Source: a virus (Duplodnaviria > Caudoviricetes). From it: a stretch of DNA of 64,000 bases. The stretch is taken from positions 66-64,065 of the IMG/VR virus record IMGVR_UViG_3300030090_004128, one strand, 5' to 3'. The first letter of the stretch is position 1. Each line of letters starts with the position of its first letter. This document shows, piece by piece, positions 14,053 to 64,000 of the stretch. The position numbers were made by a program, and so were the translations under genes. The notes beneath the pieces were generated by a model, which saw only the letters and a program-made list of their open reading frames with translations, ran no database searches and had not been told where the DNA came from.

Positions 14053-14364
14053 ATGAACACAAACACATTAAACAAACATTTAGAAAATAGATCAACAAAA
14101 GATATAACTAAAATGATAAATGAAATAACAGATATTTTTGATAAATATGATGAAGAATATAATATAAGACACCAAAATTTTTATCTTTTAAAGATTAATA
14201 AAAATGATAGGAATTGTAAAGAGAAAATAGTTTATGAGGATAAATTATTTAAAATGAGCAACATAAGAGATATGTTAAGAAGTATGTTTGAAGAAAGATA
14301 TTTTGATCGAATACTTAAAACAAGAACAGAGAACTTATTAAAGAAAGTAGAATTATTAGATTAA
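14053..14364 (+). CDS. Early hypothetical protein
   Basis: ORF track; TAAAACTATG. Confidence 0.65.
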   Translation: MNTNTLNKHLENRSTKDITKMINEITDIFDKYDEEYNIRHQNFYLLKINKNDRNCKEKIVYEDKLFKMSNIRDMLRSMFEERYFDRILKTRTENLLKKVELLD

Positions 14365-14498
14365 CAAAAAAAAAATAAAACTATGGAAAAAGAATTTGAA
14401 TATATAAAATGTAGTGAGTGTTCTTTTGACTTATTAGATGATAACAAAAAATTATTAGAACACTATTGTATTAATGATGAACTTAAATAAATAAAACT

Positions 14499-31666: not shown

Positions 31667-34600
31667 TTACTGTGTTTTTTTATCATCTTCTCTCGCCCAT
31701 ACCGTCATCATATATTGAACTTGAGGATCTGTCACTATACCCTCTTCTACAAATAAATCTTCTAAAGTTTGGTATCTAATCGGATTACCTACAGCCTCTT
31801 TTTGAGCTTCATAAACTATAAACGCTGCTGTCATCTTTTTACCCTGCTTAAAATCTATAACAGCTTGTTGAATATCAGATTCGTATTCCCCAAAATTCCA
31901 ATCCATAAAAATTTTTCTAGCTATTCTGAGATCTACCTGATCCCTATTCCATAATTTTTGATCTATCACTGGATCATTACCAAGCCTACCTTCAATCTGT
32001 CTATGAGTTTCAGCTATAACTTCTTGAGCTAACAAATAATAATCATCTCTAGCATCATTACCAAAACGCAATTTTTTACCATTTTTATCTACCATAGCAC
32101 CTGAGTTAGGATCTCTTCTTAAAGCAAATCTTTCAGATGCCGCCTTATAAGCTAAATTTAGGTTAGCTTGGAACCTCTCCTCTGTTTCTCTTATGTGGTC
32201 AGCTTCAGCTTGTAATTGTGTTTTTTGATTTCTAAGAAGATCAATTTCTCCAATATATCTTTTTGTTACTGGACCAAAAGCGTCATTTAAAAACACATTC
32301 ATTTGATTACCGTACTTCTCTTTTTCATACTCATTTAAACCTCCAGTGGCAGCCACATAACTATGATTAACTACAGCGTTCCATGGACTCCTATCCATAT
32401 TAGTAAGCATAGAGCCTATTGCTGACTTTATAGTTGTAACACCGAAACCTCCTTCTTTTAAACCCATTTTATCAAATCTCTTAGATAAATCCATTAACCA
32501 CCTATCTTCATATTTATCATAATCACCCTCATATTGAGTATATCCGTTAGCTGCCTCATTGTAATCATTCCATACAGGTCTATTGTAAAAAGCATCATAG
32601 TTACCTAAAACTTTTAAAGATACATTTAAAAGAGGGTTTGTTGATATTAGATCCCTAGGGTTACCACCACCAGCTGGTATAGCTTTCTGTAGTATTCTAC
32701 CGTAAGAATTTTTCTCATCACCTCTACCCCAAGGAGTATATGATGAAAAATCTTTAGACTGAATAAAGTAATCACTACCTGTTATGTGTTTAAATGCTAA
32801 CTCTTCCAAAGGTAATCTAAAAACATTTAATCTAGCATCACTAGGTATCTTTAAATATCTAGGAGTCACAATTCTATTGTCAGACAACTGATTTTTTATT
32901 TCAGCTATCCTTTCATCTCTTTCTTCTCCAATCTGCATGCTTTCAGCTATTTTTAATTGCTCTTGTAGAGCCACTTCCTTTTCTTGACTAACTATATCTG
33001 TAACTTTACCAGGTAATATTACACAGTGGTAATTTTCTCGATCATAAGGGCTAATATGATTTATATAGTATCTTCTATTTTTATATAGTTTTTCTCTTAT
33101 CTTTTTCTCTAATTCCCTATTTCCACTTGCTACAGCCTTATCTAAAGCATCTTGTAATCTTTTTTCTTCATCTTCGTCTAAAATATCAAAATGCTGTAAA
33201 TTATAAGCCATTAAACCAAGACCAAAAACTGAAGCCCACTGTGCTGTATCCCAAAGAAATTGCTTAGGGTTTTCACTAACATACCTAACACTCTTATCAA
33301 ACACTTGTGCCGCAGCATTAAGGTAAGCAAAGCCTAAAGAATCAAGAAATTTAATCGTTCTACCTCCATTATTAAAGTTAGCATAGTCAACTGCATTAGC
33401 TACAGCTCTTTTTTTAATAGCTATAAGGTCTTCTCCTGTGGGTTCTTGCCCATCATTTTTCTCTTTATATTCTTGTGTGTATTTTTTAATCCACCTTCTA
33501 GTATTAGCAAGTCTACCTGTCATTTCAGAAGTTGAGTTCATCTTCGCAAAAAAGTTTTTTATAGCGTTTTTATACACCTTTACGGTATTAGGATTTACAT
33601 AAGGAGCGTCATCACCATACAACTTAGACATTTGTTCTCTAGCTGCCTTTTCTCTAGCACGCTCTTCATTGAGAGTGTTTTCAGGGTCTGACATTATCTC
33701 CCTTGCTCTTTTTGTTAACGCCACTTCGTCTATAGCTAAATCAGATGAATAATCCATTAATCCATATCTAGTTAAAAACTCTAAAGATCCCCCAAGCATT
33801 TTGTATTCTTGACTAAGAGGTCCATTTGTTCCCGCATCCCAAAGTACAGCGGCCCAGTCAGTAAACGCCATCCCAAATTTAGCACCTAAACCTAGGAAGG
33901 GTACAGGATTGGTGGCCATACCATTATAAGTATCTGTAAACATAACTTGCTGAGCGAAATCATAAAATACATTAGCAACAAAGAAAAATGGTGCACCAAC
34001 ACCAGTAGCGAATACTTTAAGTGCACTACCACTCCACCTCAAAGGTTTAGTAATTAATTTAAGTTTATCACCAGCAGGAACCATTTCTCTAGGGTGAGCA
34101 AATAAACTTTGGTAAGCTGCATTTTTCATAGCAAATCTAACCTTTTTACCACCTTCATTGTAGCTCATTTCAACGTATCCAGGTTTTACTTTTTCCCCAT
34201 CTTTTAATATATACCCTATATCTTCTATTGTCATTTGAAGACCATTAACATACTCAAATCCTTTTTTAGTTACTTCAGATATTATATTATATATACCTTT
34301 TCTAACTTCATTCTCGGCTCTTAATTTAGCTCCTGTAGCTAGCGTGTTCTGCAATAACTTAACTGGATCCATGTATAAAACACTATCACTACCTTGCTTT
34401 AACATTTTTAAAGGAGACTCTAAATGATCGCCCCTATCTGAACGACCTGATTTTCTTTGCTCATTTAAATTTCTCTCTGCAAATATTACATAGTCAACAA
34501 ATTTTCTTGGATTATATTTAAAGTTTTTAAGCTCATTGTAAGTTGCTTCATCTATTAATCCTGCTTCAAAATTTCTTTTTAACTCATTACTATATTCTTG

Positions 34601-37600
34601 AAATAGTTTATCTGTAGTTTCTCTAATAATATTAAATCCATCACCCTGTTCTCTCTTCATATTGTCAATCAATTCTTGAGCAAGCTCCTTATTTATCATA
34701 ACTCTACCCTCACCTTTAGGGTTTTTAACATCTGGATGTTTCATCCTCCAAGGATGAACCTTTTTCTTAGTAGTTGGATTTACTATTGATTTGATTCCAG
34801 GCTTCATTCTAACAACAATCTCTTTACCATCTTTATCTTTAGTAAGATACTCTAATTCATATTTGGTGCTCTCCTTACCCCATCTTTTGCCATCGTATTT
34901 TTTATCTCTAATTTTACCTTTACTAATTCTAACATTAGGATTGTCTTTATATATATTTTCTAATTGAGCTTCAGCTTGTTTAATTTGATCTTCTACAGCA
35001 GACCTTTCTTCTTTTGTTTTTACACTACTATATTTTTTAACTAAAGAATTTAAGTTTTTAATAATAGCATCCGCAGCAACTTTTTGAGCGTCAGATAAAT
35101 TATCAAGCTCTATTATTCTTTCAAGTGTAGATAGTTGACCTACCAGTTTTATTTGCTTTGAAGATAAAGCTCCCCATATTTTTTTATTAGCCTGATCTAT
35201 AAGTTCTTTAGCTGTACCTGGAACCGTTAACCATAAGGTTATAGAAGCAAGTGCGTTAGAAGCTGTCTCCCCCAAGTTCATATCTTTACCTATATTTCTA
35301 ATAGATCTCTTTATTCTATATTTAGTATCTACCGTTGCCTCTTTTAACTTAACAAACGCATCGTCTAAAGATCTTTTGAAATCTGCAAGCCTTCCAAAGA
35401 AATTATCTTTACCTCTAGAGAATGCTGCATCTTGATCCTTCTGTAATTCCTCTAAAACCTCTGAGTAATCTGAATCCGTCCACCCCTCCAGGTCTATCTC
35501 AGAATTTAAAGCGTCAATCATCTCAAGAGTTTGTTTTTCCCTCATCTCTTTTAAACGAGCCTCCTCCTCTTCAAGTTTAGCTGCCTCTTCTTCTGTTAAT
35601 TCAGTTTCACCAGAGACACCAGCTTCTTTAGGATTAAACAGTCCTTCTTGATTAGATAAAAAGTTTTTAAATAATTCTCTTATTTTAACTTCTTGATCTG
35701 GTATAAAATTATCCCCATCAGTTTGAGCTTTCTTTAAGTAGTCTATAGCGGCATCTACAGCTTTAGCCACACTAGAAGTAGCCCTAAGAACAACAGAAGC
35801 TGTTTTAAGAGCCGCTCTAATAATAGGTATAGACATAAACGGATCTGCATAAGCATTTCCACCCAAATCTTTATATATCTGATCTAATTTATCTGCAAAA
35901 TCTGTTAAGATTTGAAAACGCTGAACGCTTCTACTAGAGTATTCATCTCCTGTTCTGAGATCTGAGATGTCCTTGGCGTTGTCCCCGCTATTAATAGCTC
36001 TTTGCCTTCTGGCAAGCTCTCTATTGATGTCTGTTTCAAACGACTTTTCTTGTCTTGTAGTGGTTTCGTATTCCCCATTTGTAAAAACTTTTGTGTTAAT
36101 ATATCCATTTTCTACGGTATTAAAAATATCTTCACCGTATTTTTCTTGTATTTCTTTTATTCCTTTATCTACACCCTCAATCCATTTTGATTCAAAATCC
36201 TTAACGTTACCTACCGTCAATCCCTCACCCATAGGCTCCATTAAATATTCAGGAACAAACTGCATTGATAAACCTATAACTTCTCCTTTTTGATTGTAAT
36301 TTACAGTCATTCCTTCTACTCCATTAGGACCAAAATGTTCATTAGCAAACATTCTAGCATCAGTTAAAGTCATAGGAGAGTCAAACTCTATTCTTCTAAA
36401 AGGTCTAGCGTTAGGATCTTGCTTTGTTGTTACTTTAGATATAAATACAGACTCTTGTTCGTTATTGATAGCTGTGTTTAATAACTCATCAAATAAAATA
36501 GCAAGATCTGTTCCAGTATCAACAAGTATTTCTAGATTTATAGTGTCTTCCACTTGATTCATATATATACCTTCCGATTGGTATGGTCTACCCATAGCAC
36601 CTAACTGAGCAACTATAGCATCTAAATTTTGTAATGCTTGATCCATTCTTACAGCTCCCTGCATTGTTTCCGCTATAACAGACGCTATCTCTTCTTCTGT
36701 AGCATTTCTTTCTAAAGCATTTTGAACAGCTCTGGCTGTAGCACTATATATTCTTCTTTTTTGATCTGGACTTGTATTCCCTATAAAAGTGCTAGCACCT
36801 ATCATTATTCTATCTGTTATCTTAGCAGAATTAACAGCATTTTCCATAGTTGCTTGATCTTTAGCTCTCACATCCCCAGTAAATCCAGATTCGTCATATA
36901 TTTGTTTTTCTATAAACCACATAGCGGCTTGTAGGTCGTCAGGATTTAAATTTAATTGTCTAGCAGCTAAAGCGTATACACTTTGTGCAAAAGAAAAATC
37001 TTTACTACCCACTGTTGTTTCTTGAGATTGTCTTCTTCTAAATGGTACAAACCCACCTTGAGAATATAATATCCTTCTCATATTTCTAGCAGCCCAAACA
37101 TCAATAGTAGCACTTCTGTCTCTTAGAGATAAGTTATTGTAAAACTGTCCTGTTTTGTTAGCTGGATTATTAGATAACCAATTACCATATAAAACTCTAA
37201 CAATACCTGAAGTAACTACTGGCAAACCAAATGATTTTCCATTTTTCTTTTTTATTCCAGCTACAACATCTTTGTCAGAAGAAGCTTGTTTTATAAGCTC
37301 TTTAGCTTTAATTACAGCTTTTTTACCGACTCCAAAAACACCTTGATCATACTGAGCCATTATGTTTTTTACTTTATTGTCGTATATCTCTAGGGCTTCA
37401 TCAAACTTACCCTCTGAGTAAGATTTTAAAACTTCAGTAGATTTTCTGAAATTAATTTGAGGTGGTGCTTGTGGAGATGTAACCCCTAATAATTCAAAGA
37501 ATATTGATGCATTTCCACCAAACTTCTGTTGTATTAAGTTTTTTGTTTTACTATACCAACCTGTAGCTTTCTTTAAGTCTATTTTAGAACTATTAGCATT

Positions 37601-40600
37601 AAAATCCTGTACAAGAAGTTGAGAGGCTAATTCTATTTTTTGTTGCTCTGACAATCCTTGGAAGATAGGAGCCCCACTAAAGTTAAAGGGAAGCTTTTTT
37701 ATTACAGGTTTTCCATTCTTTAAAACTACAAATCCTCCATCAAATAATATTTGCATAGGATCTGATAAGCTAGGATCATTTTTCATGTCAACATTATTAT
37801 GTTGATCTACTTTTGCTTGTAAGTTATCTATTTGTTTAAGTTCAGGTTTAGTATAATTACCTCTAACAACTTTAGGGTTAACTCTTAATTTAGCTATTTT
37901 ATATATTTCTTTAGCTTCAAGTGTATTATATTGATCTGGATATCTTTCTTGTAAAGCTTCAAAGAATTTAGCTCCAGTTATTTTATTAGCTATAGCTTCC
38001 TCAGCAAATTTAACAACCCCATCATTACTAAATAAAAATCTTCTTTTCAACATTTCTATAGACTTATCAGAGCCAACCTCATTAAAAGCTTCAGCAACTG
38101 AAAACTCCCCACTCAACAGCATTTCAGCTCTAAGAGAACCATCTACTATTCTGTCTGATTTTATAGCATCAATAGCTTTATCAAAAGCGACAGAAAGAGT
38201 TTGTCCCGCTTTTAAGCCTGCTTTTAACGTTTTTAAGAACAGTTCCCACGCCACTGGTCCTAGACCCATAGTTACATCCATATACAGGTTTTTGCCCTTA
38301 TTTCGATTTATTCTATCTAATTCTGAGTCAATACCCCTAATTGTTCTATCTACAAGGCTTTCTGTGTTTTCTGGAGATTTTATATTCGGATCAACATCAG
38401 AATCATGAGCATTTGTAGAAGCATTTATTAAATCTATTACACCAGCTAGCTCTTCTGTTATTTGATCATTAGCCTCCATTAGGTCTATATTCGCAGGACC
38501 CTCCATAGATAGCTTCAAAGTTTTTATAGCTTCTTTTTTAGTTCTTCCAATAGGGGTTTTAGTTGTTAACTCTATCCACTCTTGCTTCCCATATCTTTTA
38601 GCTATTAAAAATGGTTTACCATTAACAGTTCCCTCATATACTTTTTTAGATCTATTATATTTAAAAGGAGTATCTTGAACCACTTCTGTTTCTGTGTCTG
38701 TAGACACTTCTGTTGTAGATGGTTGTTGGAATACAAATTGATCAGGAAGTAAACCTATTTTCTGGTCTGCAAAAGGCCTATCTTGAGGTCTCACATAATC
38801 AGGATCTCCTTTCTGAGGTATACTCCCATCTTCTCTTCTTAAACCTTGATTAAAGTTAACCCATGAGTTTTGACCTCTAGTTTCTGTTGTCATAGCTCTT
38901 CTAGCATCATGACTAAACATTCTAGAGTGATTAAGCCAAGCATTTTCCTCCCCTTTAATTCCAAATCCATTACCTAACTCTGTATGACCAAAGAAATCAT
39001 GAACAGCTCTAAATAAGTCATTAACCAACAAAGGATTACCGTTAACATCTTGAAATTCTGTAGGTTGAAGTAAGGGGTTTTCTGATCTCATTTGATCTGT
39101 TATTTGGCCTTGACCAAAACCAGCCTCTGTTCCAAATATATATAAATGCTTATTATCTCTAACATCTTTTATCATCTCGTCACTATTAGCGTAAGGCTCT
39201 CCTTTACCATTATAAATTTCAATGGTGTACCCAGCATTTACAAGTGATTGATATTGCATTTGAGTTTCATTAGCTAAAGCTGTGTAAGCTTTCTGAACTT
39301 TAGGGTCTTGTGGATTATGCTCCATAGACTCATAGGCATCAGCTATATTTTTAGAGTTTTCTTCATTAATCTCAGTAACTGGAACAGCATCAGAATGTTG
39401 TATTCCTAATTGAGGTGAGTTAGTGTTTATATAGTCTGACGTTATCTGTGATGTTTCTGGGTTGGGGTCATTAAATAGTCTATTACCAGGATTCACCGAG
39501 CTTATGCTTCCAGCAGAACTCCTTACCGACTCATCTTCAAATAAAGTTAGTTGTCTACCACCAGAAGAAGGCATGCCAATATCTTCGTCACGTTCATCTT
39601 TAACTGTAGGCAAACCACCAGGACCCTCTCCAATAGGAATAATAGGACCTCCAGGAGCATCTCCTCCATCATCTCCTCCGTCATCTCCATTTATTCCACT
39701 TAAGTGATCTGGAGTTTCTCCAACCATAGTATCAAAGTCTTCATCTCCCCATAGTGTTAATTGCTCTCCCTGTGGTGATTTTTTATATTCATCCATAACA
39801 CCCAAAAACTCTTGAACTAATTGAGTATCTTCAGGATTTAGAGTGCCAGAGTCCAGCATATCTTGGAAATTCTGCTCTATGCTATTAGCTGTTAAAGTTG
39901 TAAAAGCTGTAGATAACCCTACACAAATAATAGCTGTAGTCATTAACTTATTTATTCTCTCATCTTTTGAGTGACCAACTGTAGCCATTAAAGCTTCTTC
40001 CCAGTTAAAGCCCATATTAGTTAAGTTCTCAACAAACTCACCTGAATACTCAGCTAATAACTCAGCACCACCACCCGCAAGTATTCTTGGGGGTAGGGTA
40101 GCAACTTTAACTCCTTTTTTACCAAAGTTTCTGTATAATGTTAATAACCCTCTAGTTACAGGAGTTCTTTTAAATAAAGAGTTCATTACTTGTTCTGTTG
40201 CTCCCTCAGCAGCACCCATTCTCCATGTAGCCTGATCACCTGATGTCATCTCAAAAGCAACAGCCCCTTTAACTACATTCTCACTAAACTCCCACCAAAA
40301 TGTACCCACAGGAGTGCTTTTAGCAGCAATCATAGCGTTTTTAATCATAGGCACTTTGGTAAGAGTTTTTAAACCAGCACCAGCTAAAGGCATAGTAGCA
40401 ATCATTTCAATCATAATAGGAAGTGTAGTACCTACACCTTGAGCTACCATATCATTCAAGCTTATTTCCCCCGCTACCTTTTGTTCATCTGTTAACTCTA
40501 TTCCGTAAGCATTAGCTATGTCATCATAGTAGTTAATCATATCATCCTCACTATGAACATGTCTTTTATGTACAGCGTGACCAAAAGATTCTGACATTTG

Positions 40601-43255
40601 TCTCAAGAACAAGCCTGTTCCAGTTTTCTCTGCCCATTCTTTTCCTGGATCAACATTAAATGTTAATACATTAGATATAGCTACTAACTGAGTTTGATTT
40701 TCATAGTATCTACCTTTAAAATTCTTCAGCATTTCTATCATAAACTCAGCATCTTCTTTATTAGATCCCTTTGACCAAGCACCTACATTTTTAGCCCACA
40801 TCATAGGTATAGACTTATCTATAGATCTTAATTGCTGTCTTAATCCAATAACACCCACACTTCTTTCAGCCTCGCTATCGAACTGTTCTCTTAATGCTTT
40901 TGATCCTCCACCAATACCCAAACTCCAAATAGAACTTGTATCACCAGAGGCTTCTTGTATAAAACTATACATTTCTTCTAGTGTCATTTTTTGACCACTA
41001 GGAAGTGTTATCTTTTCATTCTTCCATATATCCTGATTCATTAATTCAGTAGAATATAGACCATCTTGAGCCCTCATTAGTTGATCTACAAATGCACCGT
41101 AATCATCAGCTTGATTTAAAGCTTGCATAAAACTAGTCTCCGCAGAAACTATTTGTTGCTGTAGAATTTTATCCTCCTCCGTAGCTATAGGATCTTCCAT
41201 CCTTTCTCCTGATTCTGTGAACATTTCTGTTCCCCTTTCATACCCTCTCTTTTCTCTATTCTCCTCTATCTTAGCTTTAATAACAGCTACGTCCTGCATT
41301 AGTTTAGTAGACTGCTCAACATATTCATCTTCCTCCATTTTTTCTTTTTTGGCCTCTAATTTTTGCAGTTGGAGATTTTTTTCTTTTAAAGCATTATTTA
41401 ATTTTACCTGAGTTGTATAGGTTTCTTCATTTTGCCAGTCCGCTTGAGAAGCAAGAATATTAATATCATTAACTCTGGTTTTTTGGAAATCTTTATAAAT
41501 ATTCATAAAGACTTTATCTTGAAGCATTTCTTCAGGGTTTTTAAATTTCACACCCTTGCTAGCCTGATACTTGTCTAAAAGCTTTTTAGCCTCTGTGTCA
41601 ACAGAAAATTCATTACTTAAATCCTGTTGTATCTCGCTTTTTAATTCACCTATAACTAAATTCATTTGGTAACTTTCAGACCTATCAATTTTAGAATTTA
41701 TCTGATCATTACTACTATTAAAAAAAGCTACCCTATCTTCATGAGTTTTTAAACCACCATAAGCTGTTTTAACATCATTGACACCATGTTTATTGGAGGT
41801 TGTTAACATTTGTGCTGTTAACTTAGTTTTAGCCTCTCTTACAGCATTTATTTGATTTGTTAAATCCTCATACTGAGTCCTTTGCTCCTCACTAAGTGTA
41901 TTATAATTAACATTCCCAAGTGTAGTTCTTTCATCTACGCCCTCTTCATATACAGCTATTGGTCTGTAGTATTTATATTTTTTCTCTTCTTTATATACGT
42001 GACCACCACCAACAAGCTCACTCCTTTTATTTAATAGGCTAGCCATATGATTATCCATATTTAAAATAGTCTCATACTGAGATAAGCCCAACTCATCTAC
42101 AGATTGGAATGATTGATTTTCATCGCCTGTCTGAAGACCTGGCTCTATACCATATTCTGATAAAATCTCTTCATTTTCTCCACCACCGATAGGAACTTCA
42201 TGAAAGAATGTGTTAGTATCAGGATTAACAGCAGATAATAAATCTTTTCCATTTTCAGATATAGATGTTGTTAAAGGTATTTGCATGCCCTCATAATCTA
42301 TAAACTGACCCTCTTCGACACCCTCTAATAATAAGTTAAAGTTTTCAGGATTTTCACTATATATTTGTGCTGCTTTATAAAAATTAAAATCACCTTCCTG
42401 ACCGTAGAATTGTTCAAAGTTTTGGTTAAACTCTACATTTTTTAATTCTGCTTGAATCTCAGGATTATTTCTCGACTTCTCTCTTTTTTGAAGATCATGT
42501 TGATTTTGTATATCTATCTTTAGATCCGCCATCACATTAAAAGGAACCTCAGCAGCATCCACAGGTGATCCATTTTTAGTAAAGGTTTTTAATATATAGT
42601 CATAATCCCAAATGTCTTCTTCGGCATTTATATCCACCTCTGTGTTATTTTGTTCTTGAGGAACGATAGCTCCATCTTGAGCTGTAAAATATTTGTCTGT
42701 TGGAAGTTCTACTATCTTAGACGCTGGAGATGTTGTCATTTTACCTCCAGGTTTTAATATACCCTGATACCCACCATCTGCATAAACGTGTATAGGATAA
42801 CCTTGTCTTCCTTCTAGTAATCTAGGTTCTTTGCCTTTAAAATTAAGAGTAGCTGAGGTGCCAGGTTTTGCACCTTCTAAACCTTTATATAATTCTTCAT
42901 CTGAACTTAAATTAAGATCAGTTACAAAGGCTCCATCTTTAGCTGTAAAACTCTTATTATTTTCGCTTATTTCTAATTGCTCCGATTCTCCAGTTTCCGA
43001 TTCTAATAAACCATTTGCCGAATCTTTTTTTTTTAAGGCGTAATGATTAACTACACTTGTTATGTCACTATCACTAGGTTTATATTTAGTTAGTGCACCG
43101 TAAATGTCTTTAACCATGGTTTCATAATCACCATCGTACTGGGCAAAGATCGAATCAATCTCAACTTGAGTTAACCTATAGTTAGGTTTAAACTTCTTGT
43201 AGAAATCTGTTACGAATCTAATAGCGTTTTTATCTTTTTGATATACTACTGCCAT
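31667..43255 (-). CDS. Giant polyvalent virion/ejected protein (3862 aa)
   Basis: HDFFGH metallo-domain, TIDVW/LQAAMW domain, SAM-lyase-like segment and LPD38-like C-terminus; lies downstream of cargo genes; no RNAP DxDxD catalytic motif recognised. Confidence 0.8.
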   Translation of the reverse strand: MAVVYQKDKNAIRFVTDFYKKFKPNYRLTQVEIDSIFAQYDGDYETMVKDIYGALTKYKPSDSDITSVVNHYALKKKDSANGLLESETGESEQLEISENNKSFTAKDGAFVTDLNLSSDEELYKGLEGAKPGTSATLNFKGKEPRLLEGRQGYPIHVYADGGYQGILKPGGKMTTSPASKIVELPTDKYFTAQDGAIVPQEQNNTEVDINAEEDIWDYDYILKTFTKNGSPVDAAEVPFNVMADLKIDIQNQHDLQKREKSRNNPEIQAELKNVEFNQNFEQFYGQEGDFNFYKAAQIYSENPENFNLLLEGVEEGQFIDYEGMQIPLTTSISENGKDLLSAVNPDTNTFFHEVPIGGGENEEILSEYGIEPGLQTGDENQSFQSVDELGLSQYETILNMDNHMASLLNKRSELVGGGHVYKEEKKYKYYRPIAVYEEGVDERTTLGNVNYNTLSEEQRTQYEDLTNQINAVREAKTKLTAQMLTTSNKHGVNDVKTAYGGLKTHEDRVAFFNSSNDQINSKIDRSESYQMNLVIGELKSEIQQDLSNEFSVDTEAKKLLDKYQASKGVKFKNPEEMLQDKVFMNIYKDFQKTRVNDINILASQADWQNEETYTTQVKLNNALKEKNLQLQKLEAKKEKMEEDEYVEQSTKLMQDVAVIKAKIEENREKRGYERGTEMFTESGERMEDPIATEEDKILQQQIVSAETSFMQALNQADDYGAFVDQLMRAQDGLYSTELMNQDIWKNEKITLPSGQKMTLEEMYSFIQEASGDTSSIWSLGIGGGSKALREQFDSEAERSVGVIGLRQQLRSIDKSIPMMWAKNVGAWSKGSNKEDAEFMIEMLKNFKGRYYENQTQLVAISNVLTFNVDPGKEWAEKTGTGLFLRQMSESFGHAVHKRHVHSEDDMINYYDDIANAYGIELTDEQKVAGEISLNDMVAQGVGTTLPIMIEMIATMPLAGAGLKTLTKVPMIKNAMIAAKSTPVGTFWWEFSENVVKGAVAFEMTSGDQATWRMGAAEGATEQVMNSLFKRTPVTRGLLTLYRNFGKKGVKVATLPPRILAGGGAELLAEYSGEFVENLTNMGFNWEEALMATVGHSKDERINKLMTTAIICVGLSTAFTTLTANSIEQNFQDMLDSGTLNPEDTQLVQEFLGVMDEYKKSPQGEQLTLWGDEDFDTMVGETPDHLSGINGDDGGDDGGDAPGGPIIPIGEGPGGLPTVKDERDEDIGMPSSGGRQLTLFEDESVRSSAGSISSVNPGNRLFNDPNPETSQITSDYINTNSPQLGIQHSDAVPVTEINEENSKNIADAYESMEHNPQDPKVQKAYTALANETQMQYQSLVNAGYTIEIYNGKGEPYANSDEMIKDVRDNKHLYIFGTEAGFGQGQITDQMRSENPLLQPTEFQDVNGNPLLVNDLFRAVHDFFGHTELGNGFGIKGEENAWLNHSRMFSHDARRAMTTETRGQNSWVNFNQGLRREDGSIPQKGDPDYVRPQDRPFADQKIGLLPDQFVFQQPSTTEVSTDTETEVVQDTPFKYNRSKKVYEGTVNGKPFLIAKRYGKQEWIELTTKTPIGRTKKEAIKTLKLSMEGPANIDLMEANDQITEELAGVIDLINASTNAHDSDVDPNIKSPENTESLVDRTIRGIDSELDRINRNKGKNLYMDVTMGLGPVAWELFLKTLKAGLKAGQTLSVAFDKAIDAIKSDRIVDGSLRAEMLLSGEFSVAEAFNEVGSDKSIEMLKRRFLFSNDGVVKFAEEAIANKITGAKFFEALQERYPDQYNTLEAKEIYKIAKLRVNPKVVRGNYTKPELKQIDNLQAKVDQHNNVDMKNDPSLSDPMQILFDGGFVVLKNGKPVIKKLPFNFSGAPIFQGLSEQQKIELASQLLVQDFNANSSKIDLKKATGWYSKTKNLIQQKFGGNASIFFELLGVTSPQAPPQINFRKSTEVLKSYSEGKFDEALEIYDNKVKNIMAQYDQGVFGVGKKAVIKAKELIKQASSDKDVVAGIKKKNGKSFGLPVVTSGIVRVLYGNWLSNNPANKTGQFYNNLSLRDRSATIDVWAARNMRRILYSQGGFVPFRRRQSQETTVGSKDFSFAQSVYALAARQLNLNPDDLQAAMWFIEKQIYDESGFTGDVRAKDQATMENAVNSAKITDRIMIGASTFIGNTSPDQKRRIYSATARAVQNALERNATEEEIASVIAETMQGAVRMDQALQNLDAIVAQLGAMGRPYQSEGIYMNQVEDTINLEILVDTGTDLAILFDELLNTAINNEQESVFISKVTTKQDPNARPFRRIEFDSPMTLTDARMFANEHFGPNGVEGMTVNYNQKGEVIGLSMQFVPEYLMEPMGEGLTVGNVKDFESKWIEGVDKGIKEIQEKYGEDIFNTVENGYINTKVFTNGEYETTTRQEKSFETDINRELARRQRAINSGDNAKDISDLRTGDEYSSRSVQRFQILTDFADKLDQIYKDLGGNAYADPFMSIPIIRAALKTASVVLRATSSVAKAVDAAIDYLKKAQTDGDNFIPDQEVKIRELFKNFLSNQEGLFNPKEAGVSGETELTEEEAAKLEEEEARLKEMREKQTLEMIDALNSEIDLEGWTDSDYSEVLEELQKDQDAAFSRGKDNFFGRLADFKRSLDDAFVKLKEATVDTKYRIKRSIRNIGKDMNLGETASNALASITLWLTVPGTAKELIDQANKKIWGALSSKQIKLVGQLSTLERIIELDNLSDAQKVAADAIIKNLNSLVKKYSSVKTKEERSAVEDQIKQAEAQLENIYKDNPNVRISKGKIRDKKYDGKRWGKESTKYELEYLTKDKDGKEIVVRMKPGIKSIVNPTTKKKVHPWRMKHPDVKNPKGEGRVMINKELAQELIDNMKREQGDGFNIIRETTDKLFQEYSNELKRNFEAGLIDEATYNELKNFKYNPRKFVDYVIFAERNLNEQRKSGRSDRGDHLESPLKMLKQGSDSVLYMDPVKLLQNTLATGAKLRAENEVRKGIYNIISEVTKKGFEYVNGLQMTIEDIGYILKDGEKVKPGYVEMSYNEGGKKVRFAMKNAAYQSLFAHPREMVPAGDKLKLITKPLRWSGSALKVFATGVGAPFFFVANVFYDFAQQVMFTDTYNGMATNPVPFLGLGAKFGMAFTDWAAVLWDAGTNGPLSQEYKMLGGSLEFLTRYGLMDYSSDLAIDEVALTKRAREIMSDPENTLNEERAREKAAREQMSKLYGDDAPYVNPNTVKVYKNAIKNFFAKMNSTSEMTGRLANTRRWIKKYTQEYKEKNDGQEPTGEDLIAIKKRAVANAVDYANFNNGGRTIKFLDSLGFAYLNAAAQVFDKSVRYVSENPKQFLWDTAQWASVFGLGLMAYNLQHFDILDEDEEKRLQDALDKAVASGNRELEKKIREKLYKNRRYYINHISPYDRENYHCVILPGKVTDIVSQEKEVALQEQLKIAESMQIGEERDERIAEIKNQLSDNRIVTPRYLKIPSDARLNVFRLPLEELAFKHITGSDYFIQSKDFSSYTPWGRGDEKNSYGRILQKAIPAGGGNPRDLISTNPLLNVSLKVLGNYDAFYNRPVWNDYNEAANGYTQYEGDYDKYEDRWLMDLSKRFDKMGLKEGGFGVTTIKSAIGSMLTNMDRSPWNAVVNHSYVAATGGLNEYEKEKYGNQMNVFLNDAFGPVTKRYIGEIDLLRNQKTQLQAEADHIRETEERFQANLNLAYKAASERFALRRDPNSGAMVDKNGKKLRFGNDARDDYYLLAQEVIAETHRQIEGRLGNDPVIDQKLWNRDQVDLRIARKIFMDWNFGEYESDIQQAVIDFKQGKKMTAAFIVYEAQKEAVGNPIRYQTLEDLFVEEGIVTDPQVQYMMTVWAREDDKKTQ
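43025..43034 (-). other. A10 slippery run (candidate -1 frameshift / transcriptional slippage site)
   Basis: TTA AAA AAA AAA GAT; the -1 frame reads RFGKWFIRIGNWRIGAIRNKRK-stop (TAA 42957-42959). Confidence 0.55.
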
Positions 43256-55081: not shown

Positions 55082-55117
55082 AAAAAAAAAGGAGGTAACA
55101 AACCTGTAACCCCCTTT
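55082..55117 (-). terminator. Rho-independent terminator
   Basis: AAAGGGGGTTACAGGTTTGTTACCTCC followed by T9. Confidence 0.8.
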
Positions 55118-60236: not shown

Positions 60237-62633
60237 TTACATTCCTAATTCTAAATCAGGATCCCCTATAGGACCCTCTTTACCTTTTCTTTGCTCTATC
60301 ATTTTAGATTGAAAATGTGCACTTTTAGCTACCGTTTTCTCTCTAGACTCTCCTTGAGCTTTATTAGCTGCAACTTTTCCAATATTACCAGCTTGTATTT
60401 CTTTTAACTTTCTAACATGAGCAGCTTCCTCAAATTGATTTTTCATTTGATACTCCATCTGTAATTTTTGCATATCAAACTGAGCATCCATCTCCTTCAT
60501 TTTAGCGTCTATCTGAGCTTGCATTTGTAATTCTTGTTGCTTCATTTGTGCGGCCATAGCAGCTGATTGTTGCTGTTGTTGAGCGTTACTTTGAGATTGA
60601 GCCTGAACCATTTTCATCTGCTCCTCCTGATACTTCTTTCTCCTTAACATTAACATTCTAGATCCTAACTTAGGATTATTAATATCTCTTATCATTATAG
60701 CATCTTCTATTCTTAACTCTTTTTGAGCTAAAGACATTTGTATAGCTTGTTCTAATTGAGCTTTTTCTTGTTCATCTGGAGCTATTTCTATACCTATTCC
60801 AAAATCATGAAGAGAAATTTCTTTATTAACCTCTATCGTTCTCATTACAGACTTTCCAAGTGCAGACATATAACCCTTTACAGGTTTGTCATAATCAACT
60901 ATATCTTGAAGTTTCATGCAAATAGACTTAGCTAAATTTTCAACCACCTTATTAAATCCATCATCTATAGCTCTAGTAGCATTATTAGATGCCATTAATT
61001 GTATTTTCTGAACACCAACCAAAGCCTCACTAGATGGTTTAGCACCATCTCTAGCTTCATTAACACCTGTAACATCCCGAATCATACCTAGGTTGTGTTG
61101 ATATATTTGTATGAGTTGCATCATATCTCTACCTATACCATTCTCAAGTTCTTGTATGGGAATAGTATTAGAAGCTACACCTTCATCATCCACACGTCTA
61201 TAATATATATTACCAGTTTGATCATAAATCTCCTGTAATTCTAGAGGTGTAAATGTCCCCCCATCACCCTTAGAAACATTCTCTAAAGATCCTATTTCAA
61301 AAGCAGCTCCTTTTGGTCTAGCTTTAGCTAAAACTTGTTGCATTTTTAAATGTGCTAATTGTATCTGATCAGCAAAAGGCATCATTCTTTCAACTAAAGA
61401 TACATTACGCATATTATTTAAATTAGGACTATATATTATGTATGATAATTTTGTTTCGGAAAGATTAGATTTAGGTCTAGACATATTCTTAGCTAATCCA
61501 TAATCAAAAATATAATCAGTTCCAACTATATACTTTCCACTATAAACAACTTTTACTGTGCTGTTTAATTGTTCTCTTTTATATTTGGATTTTTTAGGAG
61601 GTTTATACCCCTTCTTTCTTTTACTAACAGAATAACCTCCAAATGCGTTATCTTTTTTCTCATAGTTTAAATCGTAAGTTGATATAAATTCAGCGTCCAT
61701 TATTTGAACAGAAAATTTATCATGCTCACTAGCGTAAGATGAATAGTTACCAAAAGACCTCCCATACAAGCTATCCTCATCTCTAAGTTTATTAGCATGA
61801 TTTGTTGCTATATCATTATACTCATCTTCAGTAAACTGATCTCCAGCCATTTCTTTTAACTGTGCTATAGTCACTGTATAAATCTCTCCCGCATGTTGAA
61901 TGTTTCTATAATCAGAAGACTGTGAATGTGAAGTTATTAGATTCAAAGGATCAACATATCTTATTTTTATACCTTCAGATGAATGTATGTATGTTTTTAT
62001 CGCAGCTGTTCCCACAACAACCAAATCTCTTATACATTTCTTTTTTATCTCGTCAAAATCATTTTGCTGAAGAACAAACTCTATACCTCTCTCTATAGAA
62101 ACCTCATGTGCCTGCTTATAGTTTAAACTCATAAATAGTTGAATCTCCTCCATGTCGCCAGCAATAAAACCTTTTTTATTATGATCAAAGCCTGTTTTTT
62201 GAGAAATCTTTTGTCTAATTGGAGCGTTCATCATATCAGCTACCATTTTTCTCCTATCTGAATCTCTTTTATCTACAGATAATTTATCTATAGCGTTAGC
62301 TTTTATAGCAAACTCTCTATTTGTCATATCACCACATACAACATCAACGAATTTAGGTATTATAGAAACTGGAGTCCAATCAATATTCATGTACGAAGAA
62401 TCACCCTCGACATCTAATAGGTCTTTATATTTAGAAACACTTTGAGTCCCTTCCGCATAAGCTCTCATTTTATTAAAAGCTCTCTTCTTATCTTGATAAG
62501 CTAGTTCTGTACTATTTTTCCAATCAGAATACATAGTCTTAAAATACTGAAGACCATACTCTTTTGTTTCTTTTTCCTTATTTGTTGCGAAGATTGTAGG
62601 ATAACCTCCTATTAATTCAAATTCTTTTTTCAT
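60237..62633 (-). CDS. Portal protein
   Basis: 798 aa after TerL; YMNIDWTPVSIIPKFVD, IRDVTGVNEARDG, Q-rich coiled-coil C-terminus. Confidence 0.9.
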   Translation of the reverse strand: MKKEFELIGGYPTIFATNKEKETKEYGLQYFKTMYSDWKNSTELAYQDKKRAFNKMRAYAEGTQSVSKYKDLLDVEGDSSYMNIDWTPVSIIPKFVDVVCGDMTNREFAIKANAIDKLSVDKRDSDRRKMVADMMNAPIRQKISQKTGFDHNKKGFIAGDMEEIQLFMSLNYKQAHEVSIERGIEFVLQQNDFDEIKKKCIRDLVVVGTAAIKTYIHSSEGIKIRYVDPLNLITSHSQSSDYRNIQHAGEIYTVTIAQLKEMAGDQFTEDEYNDIATNHANKLRDEDSLYGRSFGNYSSYASEHDKFSVQIMDAEFISTYDLNYEKKDNAFGGYSVSKRKKGYKPPKKSKYKREQLNSTVKVVYSGKYIVGTDYIFDYGLAKNMSRPKSNLSETKLSYIIYSPNLNNMRNVSLVERMMPFADQIQLAHLKMQQVLAKARPKGAAFEIGSLENVSKGDGGTFTPLELQEIYDQTGNIYYRRVDDEGVASNTIPIQELENGIGRDMMQLIQIYQHNLGMIRDVTGVNEARDGAKPSSEALVGVQKIQLMASNNATRAIDDGFNKVVENLAKSICMKLQDIVDYDKPVKGYMSALGKSVMRTIEVNKEISLHDFGIGIEIAPDEQEKAQLEQAIQMSLAQKELRIEDAIMIRDINNPKLGSRMLMLRRKKYQEEQMKMVQAQSQSNAQQQQQSAAMAAQMKQQELQMQAQIDAKMKEMDAQFDMQKLQMEYQMKNQFEEAAHVRKLKEIQAGNIGKVAANKAQGESREKTVAKSAHFQSKMIEQRKGKEGPIGDPDLELGM

Positions 62634-64000
62634 CTATATTTTCTTAGACATTAATCCTATATTCCTATATTTTTTCACAAAGTTAAGATTTATTTTTGGA
62701 ATTTTCTTTTCTATTACATATTTTTGTGCCGCTAAAAGAGCTAAACTTGAAGCTACTGTGGCATCATACTTTGTTCTATTTGATGGTTCAAACCTACTCC
62801 AATCATCTAAAAGTCTATTAAAATAACATTTACCCATCTCTTGAGTATCTGCATTCATACCCACATAATCATAAACATAACTAGCTACAGCTTCCGTTTG
62901 AGCATTAAGAACAGCTACACCAGTAGAAGGTATTCCTTTTGTTTGTTGTTTCCTACTACTCTCTGTGTGTGTAGACTCTGGTCTATCCATTAGATAATTA
63001 TAATAACCTCTTCTTTCAAAATATTTTATTATACCTATTTTATTATTTTCTATAAGTATTGGGCACCCATAAAAGACGCAAGTTTTTAAAACATCTTCAT
63101 AAAACATCTCAGCCTTTGGAGGTCTAGCTATATACTCACAAACAAACTGATTGGAAAAGTCATCTATCATGCTAAATTTCTTATACACATAACAGGCAGC
63201 ATCAGATCTTCTACCATCGGTAGTTGTATCATGATCATAAGGGTCACATCCAGCAACCATTTCAATATCATTACCAGGAGCTTTTTTATTATATATCATT
63301 TTAATCTTATTCCGCCTATCCTCTGGTGGTATCCAAGAAATTCTCCATCTACCTTGAGAACCTGGCTTCCACATTACGGTTGTATCTTTTTCTCCATTAC
63401 TCCAAATAAAATCACCTTTAACTATTAAATTTCTAGCTTCCTCATTGTAATCCATTTGTTGATATATTCTTTCTACATCAAAAGGACTATATCTTGAATC
63501 ACTCCTAAATGCTTCATCAATAGTAAATGGTCTTTGTCTTTTTTCTTCAGATAACTTAGTGGTGTTCCCTTGATAAGCGTCTCTTATGTTTTGTAAATAT
63601 TCTTTAGCTCCTATTTTTTTACCTATAAATTTAGCTTGATCTTTAGTTGGTGTATCAATAACAGAAAACCCATATTCATCTATAAATCCTTCATACCCAT
63701 CATACGCTGGTGTAAAATAAGAATACATACCTGATCTCGTTCTACCATTGGCATCTCTCTCCTCTATATCACTATCATACCATATATTTTTAAAGTTCTC
63801 ACCTCCAGATATTTCTAATTCATTAACAGTAGATGGCATAAAACATCTTCCTATTATCTTATCCCCTAGAGTTAAACACGACCTAACAACTTCCCAATTC
63901 TTCTCAACACTAGCCTCTGTCCATTTACCAGCCTCATCACATAAATATCTTATTAGCTTAACTGAGTCATATGAATTTTCCCTAGTGTTTCTCCAATCTA
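62634..64000 (-). CDS. terL: Terminase large subunit, C-terminal part (frame open to window end)
   Basis: IDWRNTRENSYDSVKLIRYLCDEAGKW (Walker B), GCDPYD RNase H-like nuclease motif, ENNK, KYDATV. Confidence 0.92.
   Translation of the reverse strand, partial: DWRNTRENSYDSVKLIRYLCDEAGKWTEASVEKNWEVVRSCLTLGDKIIGRCFMPSTVNELEISGGENFKNIWYDSDIEERDANGRTRSGMYSYFTPAYDGYEGFIDEYGFSVIDTPTKDQAKFIGKKIGAKEYLQNIRDAYQGNTTKLSEEKRQRPFTIDEAFRSDSRYSPFDVERIYQQMDYNEEARNLIVKGDFIWSNGEKDTTVMWKPGSQGRWRISWIPPEDRRNKIKMIYNKKAPGNDIEMVAGCDPYDHDTTTDGRRSDAACYVYKKFSMIDDFSNQFVCEYIARPPKAEMFYEDVLKTCVFYGCPILIENNKIGIIKYFERRGYYNYLMDRPESTHTESSRKQQTKGIPSTGVAVLNAQTEAVASYVYDYVGMNADTQEMGKCYFNRLLDDWSRFEPSNRTKYDATVASSLALLAAQKYVIEKKIPKINLNFVKKYRNIGLMSKKI

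What the first reader, a model, noticed from the sequence alone, without database searches (positions are those of the whole stretch)
42957..43040. Slippery A10 with apparent dual coding: a hidden ~99-aa alternative product of the 3862-aa gene
Seen: codons 74-78 read TTA AAA AAA AAA GAT. The -1 frame gives RFGKWFIRIGNWRIGAIRNKRK-stop, a cationic Trp/Phe/Ile peptide with an internal repeat (FGKW, IRIGNW, RIG). The zero frame uses TCG three times in 13 codons, which is unexpected in an AT-rich genome and is what the -1 frame F-G/I-G pairs require. Known: X XXY YYZ heptamers and A-runs of 9 or more promote -1 ribosomal shifts or RNA polymerase slippage. Inference: programmed recoding sets the ratio of the giant protein to a short membrane-active isoform with the same N-terminal domain, analogous to tail-chaperone frameshifts but in an ejected-protein gene.
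Basis: partly seen in the sequence, partly recalled or inferred. Interest (0 to 1): 0.75.

Follow-up and report, generated by a model that had tools for sequence, protein, structure and literature searches.

The report
Conserved slippery A10 recoding site in phage
A run of ten A's near the start of a giant phage virion-protein gene, together with a hidden 22-residue peptide in the overlapping reading frame, is conserved across many marine flavobacterial phages, so the gene very probably makes a second, 99-residue protein by programmed slippage.

Summary
Codons 74-78 of the 3862-aa gene (window 31667-43255, minus strand) read TTA AAA AAA AAA GAT. One extra A, or a -1 shift, gives RFGKWFIRIGNWRIGAIRNKRK-stop, a 99-aa product.

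- **Run conserved:** 29 of 30 informative homologous loci (19 unique sequences, down to 47% identity) keep exactly A10 in the same phase.
- **Hidden frame conserved:** the -1 product is 98-99 aa in 28 of 29 loci.
- **Coding signature:** in the overlap, variation peaks at zero-frame codon position 2. dN/dS is 1.4 in the zero frame and 0.25 in the -1 frame. Synonymous change falls to 0 of 378 pair comparisons.
- **Genome avoids such runs:** this is the only one of 17 KKK windows encoded all-AAA.
- **Wider spread:** the same layout (small N-terminal module, A9-A11 run, acidic linker in the long frame, basic/aromatic/Gly peptide in the -1 frame) recurs in Elemovirus, Callevirus, Pachyviridae Cellulophaga phages, Maribacter phage Panino and two uncultured lineages. 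None of the records seen annotates it.
- **Mechanism:** no conserved RNA structure follows the run. I favour RNA-polymerase slippage over ribosomal frameshifting.

No RNA or protein evidence could be obtained, and the peptide's function (membrane or nucleic-acid binding) is inferred. I rate it a new member of a known kind of recoding.

The parts
31667..43255 (-). Giant gene (3862 aa), last large gene of the structural module; zero-frame product
   Evidence: ORF list and translation. Weak hits to phrog_3170 and DUF7178 only. Syntenic giant or large genes in related phages are labelled structural or virion proteins.
43037..43255 (-). Shared N-terminal module, codons 1-73: a small four-helix domain present in both isoforms
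   Evidence: AF2 pLDDT about 81-84 with helices at 9-22, 30-40, 44-55 and 62-71. Zero-frame dN/dS 0.18. No fold match.
43025..43034 (-). Slippery run A10 (last A of TTA-74 plus AAA-75, AAA-76, AAA-77)
   Evidence: Exact A10 in 29 of 30 informative loci. TTA 19/19 and AAA 57/57 in unique sequences, versus mixed AAA/AAG at K7 and K9. The only all-AAA case among 17 KKK windows in the window.
42957..43025 (-). -1 frame extension: 22 codons (RFGKWFIRIGNWRIGAIRNKRK) plus TAA stop, reached only from the run
   Evidence: -1 frame dN/dS 0.24-0.28, identity 0.73. No ATG/GTG/TTG in this frame between the previous stop and the run in 17 of 17 sequences. The database holds P0010, a 99-aa ORF carrying this exact tail, from a contig in which the tail is in frame (consistent with A11).
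42956..43024 (-). Zero-frame counterpart of the overlap: acidic S/E/G/T linker of the giant protein (codons 78-100), predicted disordered
   Evidence: pLDDT 33-39. Zero-frame dN/dS 1.42-1.46 with dS 0.22. Synonymous trough, 0/378 at codons 79-90. Net charge -7.

Best explanation
The A10 run is a programmed recoding site. While the late structural operon is transcribed, RNA polymerase slips backwards on the ten A:T pairs and a fraction of the mRNAs carry A11. Ordinary translation of those mRNAs gives a 99-aa protein: the 77-residue N-terminal four-helix module followed by a 22-residue strongly basic, Trp/Phe/Ile/Gly peptide. Unslipped A10 mRNA gives the 3862-aa virion protein, whose own sequence across the overlap is only a tolerant, disordered acidic linker. 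The run length sets the ratio of the two products. What is shown: the run, the hidden frame, its purifying selection, and its spread across phage families. What is inferred: that slippage happens at the RNA level, the ratio, and the role of the short isoform. My best guess for that role is that the polybasic-aromatic tail tethers the shared N-module to an anionic surface (membrane or nucleic acid) during assembly or entry.
For: - **Run conserved:** exact A10 in the same phase in 29 of 30 informative loci, 19 unique sequences.
- **Codon choice frozen:** L74 is TTA in 19/19 and K75-77 are AAA in 57/57. The two other conserved Lys columns of the same domain are AAA:AAG 10:9 and 12:6. N-domain synonymous dS is 1.45.
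- **Product length conserved:** the -1 product is 98-99 aa in 28 of 29 loci.
- **Wobble moves to the -1 frame:** pairwise difference by -1 codon position is 0.19, 0.22 and 0.39, against the normal 0.27, 0.18 and 0.47 for zero-frame positions upstream.
- **Amino-acid identity in the overlap:** -1 frame 0.73, zero frame 0.56, +1 frame 0.49.
- **NG86 dN/dS in the overlap:** zero frame 1.42-1.46, -1 frame 0.24-0.28, +1 frame 0.64-0.82; N-domain 0.18.
- **Synonymous trough:** confined to codons 73-102, with 0/378 at codons 79-90 against a background of 0.2-0.47.
- **Genome avoids slippery runs:** 16 of 17 KKK windows contain AAG although AAA is 75% of Lys codons.
- **No independent start:** none in the -1 frame in 17/17 sequences.
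- **Same layout in other lineages:** Elemovirus A10; phi38:1 and Calle_1 A10; MW202828 A11; L046/L047 A10; Pachyviridae Cellulophaga phages and Panino with A9 as deposited.
- **Favouring RNA polymerase over the ribosome:** RNAalifold finds 0 conserved pairs around and after the run, and the single-sequence fold has z = +0.79. All ten A's are conserved although seven suffice for a heptamer.
- **Published support (passages read):** single-A insertions predominate in A/T runs and rise exponentially with run length (PMC5574713). Runs of 9 slip efficiently in vivo and are used in Thermus dnaX, while A_AAA_AAA is a much poorer ribosomal shift site than A_AAA_AAG in E. coli (PMC5009743). The conserved alternative frame is the one reached by a one-A insertion.
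Against: - No transcript or protein evidence. Only assembled contigs were available. The one RNA-library contig across the site shows no indel, which is uninformative because contigs drop minority variants.
- The polymerase that transcribes this gene is unknown; no phage RNA polymerase was identified.
- A ribosomal -1 shift or poly(A) sliding would give the identical protein and cannot be excluded.
- One low-coverage contig (L023) has a partly degenerate 103-aa -1 product.
- One 555-bp contig protein (P0015) reads LNKK, an interrupted run.
- Tenacibaculum phage Gundel_1 shows no such layout in the 27 kb examined.
- The MW202828 tail has little of the aromatic-Gly motif.
- AF2 gives no structure for the tail.
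Confidence: 0.6

Rival explanations
1. Programmed -1 ribosomal frameshifting, or ribosome sliding on poly(A), at A_AAA_AAA on an unedited A10 mRNA produces the same 99-aa isoform.
For: The run contains X_XXY_YYZ heptamers in the correct phase. All the comparative evidence for a functional -1 product fits this equally well. Ribosomes are reported to slide on iterated AAA codons (PMC4363877; search listing and start of abstract only).
Against: No conserved downstream stem-loop or pseudoknot (0 pairs; z +0.79). Seven A's would suffice, yet ten are invariant, including the synonymous TTA. In E. coli A_AAA_AAA is much less shift-prone than A_AAA_AAG (PMC5009743 passage). The phase of the run differs between lineages (phase 2 in the window clade and phi38:1; phase 1 in elemoE and MW202828).
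Confidence: 0.27
2. DNA-level phase variation: replication slippage makes A9, A10 and A11 genome subpopulations, and the short protein comes from A11 genomes.
For: Assemblies do differ at the run. There is A9 in L026. Database ORFs are consistent with A9, A11 and A8 contigs (P0013, P0014, P0010, P0018). Four Pachyviridae phages and Panino are deposited with A9.
Against: 29 of 30 informative loci are A10. Variants of one base at long homopolymers are the commonest assembly and sequencing error. A genome out of frame would lack the giant virion protein unless slippage rescued it. DNA slippage rates are too low to supply a product in every infection (established knowledge, not tested here).
Confidence: 0.05
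3. There is no functional second product. The run and flanking conservation reflect a nucleic-acid element (a packaging, regulatory or recombination hotspot), or an unavoidable by-product that is degraded.
For: The 5' end of the gene is also unusually conserved at synonymous sites (codons 1-12), so nucleotide-level constraint does exist in this region. No product has been observed.
Against: Substitutions in the overlap have three-base periodicity in the -1 frame, with -1 dN/dS 0.25 and conservative replacements (K/R, W/F/Y, I/F). The stop position is conserved within one codon while the last residues differ. Unrelated nucleotide sequences in other phage families encode peptides of the same kind behind their own runs. 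No conserved RNA structure was found.
Confidence: 0.05

Closest known systems
Thermus thermophilus dnaX (tau/gamma by transcriptional slippage at a 9-base A/T run)
   Same: A homopolymer of 9 or more inside one long ORF. The full-length product comes from unslipped mRNA and truncated N-terminally identical products from slipped mRNA. No RNA structure is needed (PMC5009743 passages).
   Different: In dnaX both non-zero frames stop almost at once and the short product has no functional unique tail. Here the -1 frame encodes a 22-residue peptide under purifying selection, the shift lies at 2% of the gene length, and the gene is a phage virion protein.
E. coli dnaX -1 ribosomal frameshift (A_AAA_AAG)
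   Same: A Lys-codon slippery site yields a short isoform that shares the N-terminus.
   Different: That site needs an upstream SD-like element and a downstream stem-loop, and it uses AAG. Here no structure is conserved and the run is pure A10.
Shigella spa13 and Citrobacter tssM transcriptional frameshifting
   Same: Bacterial RNA-polymerase slippage in A-runs of secretion or injection-machine genes gives two length variants (PMC5009743 passage; PMC4256274 search listing and start of abstract only).
   Different: Those cases extend or rescue the longer product. Here the slipped product is the short one. The host is a phage genome, and the element recurs across several phage families.
Potyvirus P3N-PIPO (polymerase slippage into an overlapping ORF)
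   Same: A short overlapping ORF with a coding signature inside a much larger ORF, reached by insertion of one A at a GA6-type run. The product is an N-terminal part plus a new C-terminus (PMC5009743 passage).
   Different: That is an RNA-virus replicase, not a DNA-dependent RNA polymerase, and the biology differs. The legend of the review's table of polymerase slippage in viruses names only RNA-virus classes.
Lambda-type tail assembly chaperone G/GT -1 frameshift
   Same: Phage structural-module recoding that fixes a ratio of two proteins with a common N-terminus.
   Different: G/GT shifts near the 3' end and makes the longer, rarer product. It sits between the tail tube and tape-measure genes and uses heptamers such as G_GGA_AAG. 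Position, direction and gene family all differ here.

Membership tests
Programmed transcriptional slippage site | A/T homopolymer of about 9 or more within the coding sequence | tested here: met
   A10 at window 43025-43034. It is the only run of 9 or more inside an ORF of 100 aa or more in the window.
Programmed transcriptional slippage site | Run length conserved among homologues beyond codon-usage expectation | tested here: met
   29 of 30 loci have exact A10. TTA 19/19 and AAA 57/57, versus 10:9 and 12:6 AAA:AAG at control Lys columns.
Programmed transcriptional slippage site | Heterogeneous mRNA population with extra A's, above the DNA control | not testable with these tools
   Only assembled contigs were served. 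One RNA-library contig spans the site without an indel, which says nothing about minority forms.
Programmed transcriptional slippage site | Trans-frame protein product detected | not tested
   No proteomic data were accessible and supplements are closed. Record notes give MS/MS evidence only for the large protein of phi18:3.
-1 programmed ribosomal frameshift cassette | X_XXY_YYZ heptamer in the zero-frame phase | tested here: met
   A_AAA_AAA occurs twice within TTA AAA AAA AAA.
-1 programmed ribosomal frameshift cassette | Conserved downstream stimulatory stem-loop or pseudoknot | tested here: not met
   RNAalifold on 15 sequences finds 0 pairs. The MFE of the window sequence has z = +0.79 against shuffles.
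Overlapping (dual-coding) gene | Suppressed synonymous variation in the known frame, coincident with the alternative ORF | tested here: met
   The trough spans codons 73-102, with 0/378 at 79-90. Zero-frame dS is 0.22 against 1.45 upstream.
Overlapping (dual-coding) gene | Purifying selection and wobble periodicity in the alternative frame | tested here: met
   -1 frame dN/dS 0.24-0.28. Variation is highest at -1 codon position 3 (0.39 against 0.19 and 0.22).
Tail assembly chaperone G/GT frameshift | Shift near the 3' end of a small chaperone gene upstream of the tape measure, giving a longer fusion | tested here: not met
   The shift is at codon 77 of 3862 and truncates the product. The gene is the giant virion protein at the end of the structural module.
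Phase-variable contingency locus (DNA slippage) | Run length polymorphic at the DNA level between or within isolates | tested here: inconclusive
   29 A10 and 1 A9 among loci. A few database ORFs are consistent with A8, A9 or A11 contigs. These cannot be told apart from homopolymer assembly errors.

The most novel reading that the evidence does not exclude
A modular recoding cassette is an ancient, general feature of the giant virion-protein genes of several families of Flavobacteriia phages. It consists of a small N-terminal module, an A9-A11 run, and an overlapping basic/aromatic-Gly peptide in the -1 frame. It would work by RNA-polymerase slippage, which would be the first programmed transcriptional slippage described in dsDNA phages. 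In lineages whose genomes really carry A9 (Pachyviridae Cellulophaga phages, Maribacter phage Panino), the large virion protein itself could then only be made from slipped mRNA, so slippage would be obligatory and three products would come from one start codon.
Probability: 0.3. Interest if true: 0.85.

Novelty: new member of a known kind. Interest (0 to 1): 0.72.

Why it matters
- **An unannotated protein.** It would add a conserved protein to an abundant group of marine phages. None of the 12 annotated records examined marks the site.
- **Mis-annotated records.** In four Pachyviridae records and in Panino the gene is split or started at an internal GTG or TTG because of the run.
- **Testable in culture.** Cellulophaga phi38:1 and the Flavobacterium elemo phages are cultured, so programmed slippage in a DNA phage can be tested directly.
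- **A method point.** It shows that long homopolymers in phage genes should not be 'corrected' or treated as assembly errors by default.
- **A new peptide class.** The short isoform's tail is a recurrent peptide type (net charge +8 to +12, 4-11 aromatic residues, FG/IG/WG motifs) whose role in virion assembly or cell entry is unknown.

I found no description of the site. Searches gave nothing. The main texts of PMC5335546 and PMC8776804 contain no 'frameshift', and PMC8776804 also has no 'slippage' or 'homopolymer'. Supplements could not be seen.

Tried and rejected
- **Phage collection searches.** tblastn and megablast of the N-terminus and the locus against the phage collection gave no match.
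- **Gene identity.** Pfam, NCBIfam and PDB sequence searches of the giant protein gave only DUF7178 and phrog_3170 weakly. No phage RNA polymerase was identified.
- **N-module fold.** Foldseek against PDB and BFVD gave nothing with E below 0.49.
- **Tail structure.** AF2 of the 99-aa product (database protein P0010) left the tail unstructured, pLDDT 41-47. The helical hydrophobic moment of eight tails was not above shuffles (p 0.03-0.9), so I dropped the 'amphipathic helix' idea.
- **Self-association.** Complex prediction of two copies of P0010 returned no verdict, score 0.00.
- **ESM Atlas.** No usable hit for P0010.
- **Sequencing runs.** All 20 runs found are kept as contigs. Four were laid, and no indel was listed at the run in any of them. 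Parts of the stretch without cover in the RNA runs say nothing.
- **Independent initiation of the -1 ORF.** Rejected: no start codon in 17/17 sequences.
- **Tenacibaculum phage Gundel_1.** An A9 run in gp091 has no open alternative frame, so there is no such layout in the 27 kb examined.
- **P0028 lineage.** No DNA found in viral contigs.
- **N-modules of different phage groups.** Not significantly alike by BLASTP (E of 0.1 or more), so homology of the whole layout across families is not shown by sequence.
- **Closed or rejected calls.** Two paper searches were rejected for term syntax.

Full report
**1. What is there**

The window is a complete 64-kb virus record, GC 33%. Its minus strand carries a structural module. 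In order it holds terminase (62634-63839), a P22-like portal (60237-62633), several 'virion structural protein' PHROGs, a 1654-aa protein and a fibre-chaperone-domain protein. Last comes a 3862-aa ORF at 31667-43255.

Codons 74-78 of that ORF read TTA AAA AAA AAA GAT. This is an A10 run at 43025-43034. Adding one A, or shifting -1, gives RFGKWFIRIGNWRIGAIRNKRK and then TAA at 42959-42957. The product is 99 aa.

The other frame, reached by removing one A, stops after 6 residues (83 aa in all). Its length is not conserved in relatives: 83, 100, 104 and 123 aa.

There are three TCG in 13 codons, against 4.2% of Ser codons in the window. They are what the -1 frame F-G and I-G pairs require.

**2. 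Is it more than chance?**

An A10 on its own is not. The window has two runs of 10 or more, and my own base-composition arithmetic (no call) expects about one.

Three things set this run apart.
- It is the only homopolymer of 9 or more inside any of 49 ORFs.
- Of 17 KKK windows in those ORFs, the other 16 are interrupted by AAG although AAA is 75% of Lys codons. The genome therefore avoids slippery runs everywhere else.
- It is conserved, as the next section shows.

**3. Homologues**

Protein and pattern searches gave 7 giant homologues. They also gave 14 IMG/VR locus entries from 10 distinct contigs (four contigs were fetched twice) and 20 metagenome loci. N-terminal identity to the window falls as low as 47%.

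I examined 31 sequences: the window, L001-L004 and L010-L035. L006-L009 duplicate L001-L004 and were left out.
- One (L034) ends before the site.
- 29 of the other 30 have exactly A10 in the same phase.
- One (L026) has A9, which breaks the frame in that contig.

These collapse to 19 unique sequences. In them L74 is TTA in 19/19 and K75-K77 are AAA in 57/57. The two other conserved lysines of the same domain are AAA:AAG 10:9 and 12:6.

The -1 product is 98-99 aa in 28 of 29 loci. The exception is L023, a low-coverage 2.6-kb contig with a partly degenerate 103-aa version.

The peptide changes conservatively between clades:
- RFGKWFIRIGNWRIGAIRNKRK
- RLGRFYIRFGRWYIGFIKNENRP
- RFGKWFIRFGNWRIGVVGNKRTV

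**4. Coding signature in the overlap**

| Measure | Zero frame | -1 frame | +1 frame | N-domain upstream (zero frame) |
|---|---|---|---|---|
| Amino-acid identity | 0.56 | 0.73 | 0.49 | 0.63 |
| dN/dS (Nei-Gojobori) | 1.42-1.46 | 0.24-0.28 | 0.64-0.82 | 0.18 |
| dS | 0.22 | 0.77-0.92 | n/a | 1.45 |

Nucleotide diversity in the overlap is 0.19, 0.22 and 0.39 at -1 frame codon positions 1, 2 and 3. So the wobble sits at zero-frame position 2. Just upstream it is 0.27, 0.18 and 0.47 at zero-frame positions 1, 2 and 3, the normal pattern.

In nine sequences of the window's own subclade, synonymous differences among identical-residue pairs drop to 0/378 at codons 79-90. They stay at or below 0.06 from codon 73 to 102. 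They return to 0.2-0.47 right after the -1 stop.

The -1 frame has no ATG, GTG or TTG between its previous stop and the run in 17/17 sequences. It can therefore be entered only from the zero frame at the run.

The zero-frame residues across the overlap form an acidic S/E/G/T linker that AF2 predicts as disordered, pLDDT 33-39. This is the kind of sequence that tolerates overprinting.

**5. The same layout in other phage groups**

The portal is 25-34% identical to portals of cultured Flavobacteriia phages. The large terminal structural genes of those phages carry their own run and their own -1 peptide. Their N-terminal modules are not detectably similar to the window's.

| Phage or lineage | Run | -1 frame tail | Product |
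|---|---|---|---|
| Flavobacterium phage elemoE gp18 (3694 aa) | A10 at codon 57 | ...SFGFSYTTTRKKTYIGWRKTKNNWGFGIFCWER | 103 aa |
| Cellulophaga phage phi38:1 gp101, and Calle_1 | TTA AAA AAA AAA GAA at codon 33 | RKRRAFGIEFYLWSGSFKFGWFRL | 60 aa |
| Uncultured MW202828 (3859 aa) | A11, in frame | basic, Tyr-rich | 91 aa |
| IMG/VR lineage L046/L047 | A10 | RPIRRKFGWGRYYVRWGNWWFGLFRG | 96 aa |

In four Pachyviridae Cellulophaga phages (phi46:3, phi18:3, phi19:3, phi13:2) and in Maribacter phage Panino the deposited run is A9.
- The annotation there is split into a roughly 90-100-aa ORF plus a large ORF started at an internal TTG or GTG.
- A10 would join the two ORFs.
- The frame one further A away encodes RRFRIYFSKSAIGFGTSSRSWFFGWCTK in the Pachyviridae phages, and KSKPKRKFWGIRGRKWFIGFFRPEGGGWFFGISRKSD in Panino.
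- Whether A9 is real or a homopolymer miscount cannot be told here. I recall, without a call, that the Cellulophaga genomes were sequenced with 454.

All tails have a net charge of +8 to +12 and 4-11 aromatic residues. All but MW202828 have repeated FG, IG or WG units.

A whole-library HMMER search with P0010 also found P0027 (93 aa). Its N-module is distant and its tail is RSFRIGRWRITIENHSSKNSRRT. A zero-frame relative, P0034, reads YGLKKKD. No DNA was available for either.

**6. Assembly variants**

The protein database holds ORFs that correspond to run-length variants.
- P0010 is a 99-aa ORF with exactly the window's predicted tail.
- P0018 has the tail after KK.
- P0013, P0014, P0019, P0022 and P0026 are +1 frame forms.
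- P0015, from a 555-bp contig, reads LNKK, which is an interrupted run.

These show that the run is unstable in sequencing or in nature. They do not tell which.

**7. Mechanism**

Three observations are relevant.
- No RNA structure is conserved around or after the run. RNAalifold finds 0 pairs in 15 sequences, and the MFE has z = +0.79.
- All ten A's are under selection, although seven would serve a ribosomal heptamer.
- The conserved frame is the one reached by a one-A insertion.

Passages I read agree with a polymerase mechanism.
- Single-A insertions predominate in A/T runs and rise exponentially with run length (PMC5574713).
- Bacterial RNA polymerase slips efficiently on runs of 9, and this is used in Thermus dnaX. 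A_AAA_AAA is a much poorer ribosomal shift site than A_AAA_AAG in E. coli (PMC5009743).
- T7-type polymerases slip even more readily (PMC6260861, abstract only).

I therefore favour transcriptional slippage (0.6) over a ribosomal shift or sliding (0.27). Both give the same protein.

Direct evidence could not be had. All 20 runs that hold the sequence are stored as contigs. One oligo-dT RNA-library contig of a relative spans the site without an indel, which neither supports nor contradicts a minority A11 form.

**8. Function (inferred)**

The shared N-module is a confident small four-helix domain with no fold match. The tail is unstructured in AF2 and is not a significant amphipathic helix.

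By composition it resembles polybasic-aromatic peptides that bind anionic membranes or nucleic acids. I recall the MARCKS effector domain and Arg/Trp antimicrobial peptides as examples; neither was tested.

The tail core also matched a repeated FIQIGNWRLG-like motif in a 972-aa PAN-domain protein (P0030). The E-value was 3e-6, summed over 5 short stretches, so it may be chance.

My working model is that the short isoform places the N-module on a membrane or on DNA, and either competes or co-assembles with the giant protein. This is a guess. The self-association job gave no verdict (see Tried and rejected).

**9. Comparison and novelty**

The site works like known recoding sites: Thermus and E. 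coli dnaX, Shigella spa13, potyvirus P3N-PIPO. It is not a G/GT-type tail-chaperone frameshift.

I found no description of it.
- Paper searches gave nothing.
- The main texts of the phi38:1 transcriptome paper and the North Sea flavophage paper lack 'frameshift'. The flavophage paper also lacks 'slippage' and 'homopolymer'.
- The legend of the 2016 review's table of polymerase slippage in viruses names only RNA-virus classes.
- Supplements were closed and could hold proteomic peptides that bear on this.

**Verdict**

This is a real, conserved recoding site and a new member of a known kind. It is unannotated, or mis-annotated, in cultured phages where it can now be tested.

Noticed in passing
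L038:23634-23900 (-) and L038:18229-23718 (-), Maribacter phage Panino PP540027.1: The large gene annotated 'tRNA methyltransferase' starts at an internal GTG. An ATG ORF 180 nt upstream runs into an A9 run and would be in frame with the large gene only with A10. A plus-strand 'hypothetical protein' (CDS0070) is annotated across the gap. Either the homopolymer was miscounted or slippage is required.
   Followed up: partly
L040:19119-23758 (phi46:3), L043, L044, L045 (phi18:3, phi19:3, phi13:2): All four Pachyviridae Cellulophaga phage records have A9 at the end of an 87-103-aa ORF that lies just upstream of the large virion protein. The record note for phi18:3 gp123 says MS/MS-verified. A10 would make one continuous ORF of more than 1500 aa.
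   Followed up: partly
P0016, P0024, P0025: The phage N-terminal module (residues about 8-75) matches a repeat unit of roughly 60-95 residues. The unit occurs 17, 10 and 6 times in tandem in long proteins of unknown origin, with the pattern F-F/Y-x-K-H-N-P-x-K...D-x-I-L-x-x-Y-x-G-K-E. Pfam gave only spurious low-complexity hits.
   Followed up: partly
window 43220-43255 (-), codons 1-12 of the giant gene: There is a second trough of synonymous variation (0.04 against a background of 0.2-0.47) at the very start of the gene in the window's subclade. It may be a translation-initiation or regulatory constraint. The upstream gene ends 18 nt before the ATG, so it is not an overlap.
   Followed up: no
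window 14366-14375 (+), 12721-12729 (+), 55082-55090 (+): The other long A runs (A10, A9, A9) lie outside the 49 ORFs of 100 aa or more that I used. The A10 starts two bases after the stop of ORF 14053-14364. Their role is unknown; they may be A-tracts of promoters or terminators.
   Followed up: no
P0030: A 972-aa protein with weak PAN-domain hits carries about nine copies of a motif like F-I-Q-I-G-N-W-R-L-G-D-x-D-x-x-H-F-S-I-S-H. The motif resembles the core of the phage -1 peptide (WFIRIGNWRIGAI). This may be chance, or a hint that the tail forms a hairpin around G-N.
   Followed up: no
elemoA records such as MT497087.1 and MT497103.1: Seven listed Elemovirus genome records begin at or next to the A10 run (query position 170-171), and 26 others at position 80-81 of the giant gene. 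Assemblies or linearisation points seem to break there, probably as an artefact of the homopolymer or of circular permutation.
   Followed up: no
window 42978-43045, run X10: In one seawater metagenome, contig depth peaks at 35-55 over the run and the overlap, and several contigs end there with unlike flanks. This is consistent with many related phages sharing this conserved stretch while differing around it.
   Followed up: no
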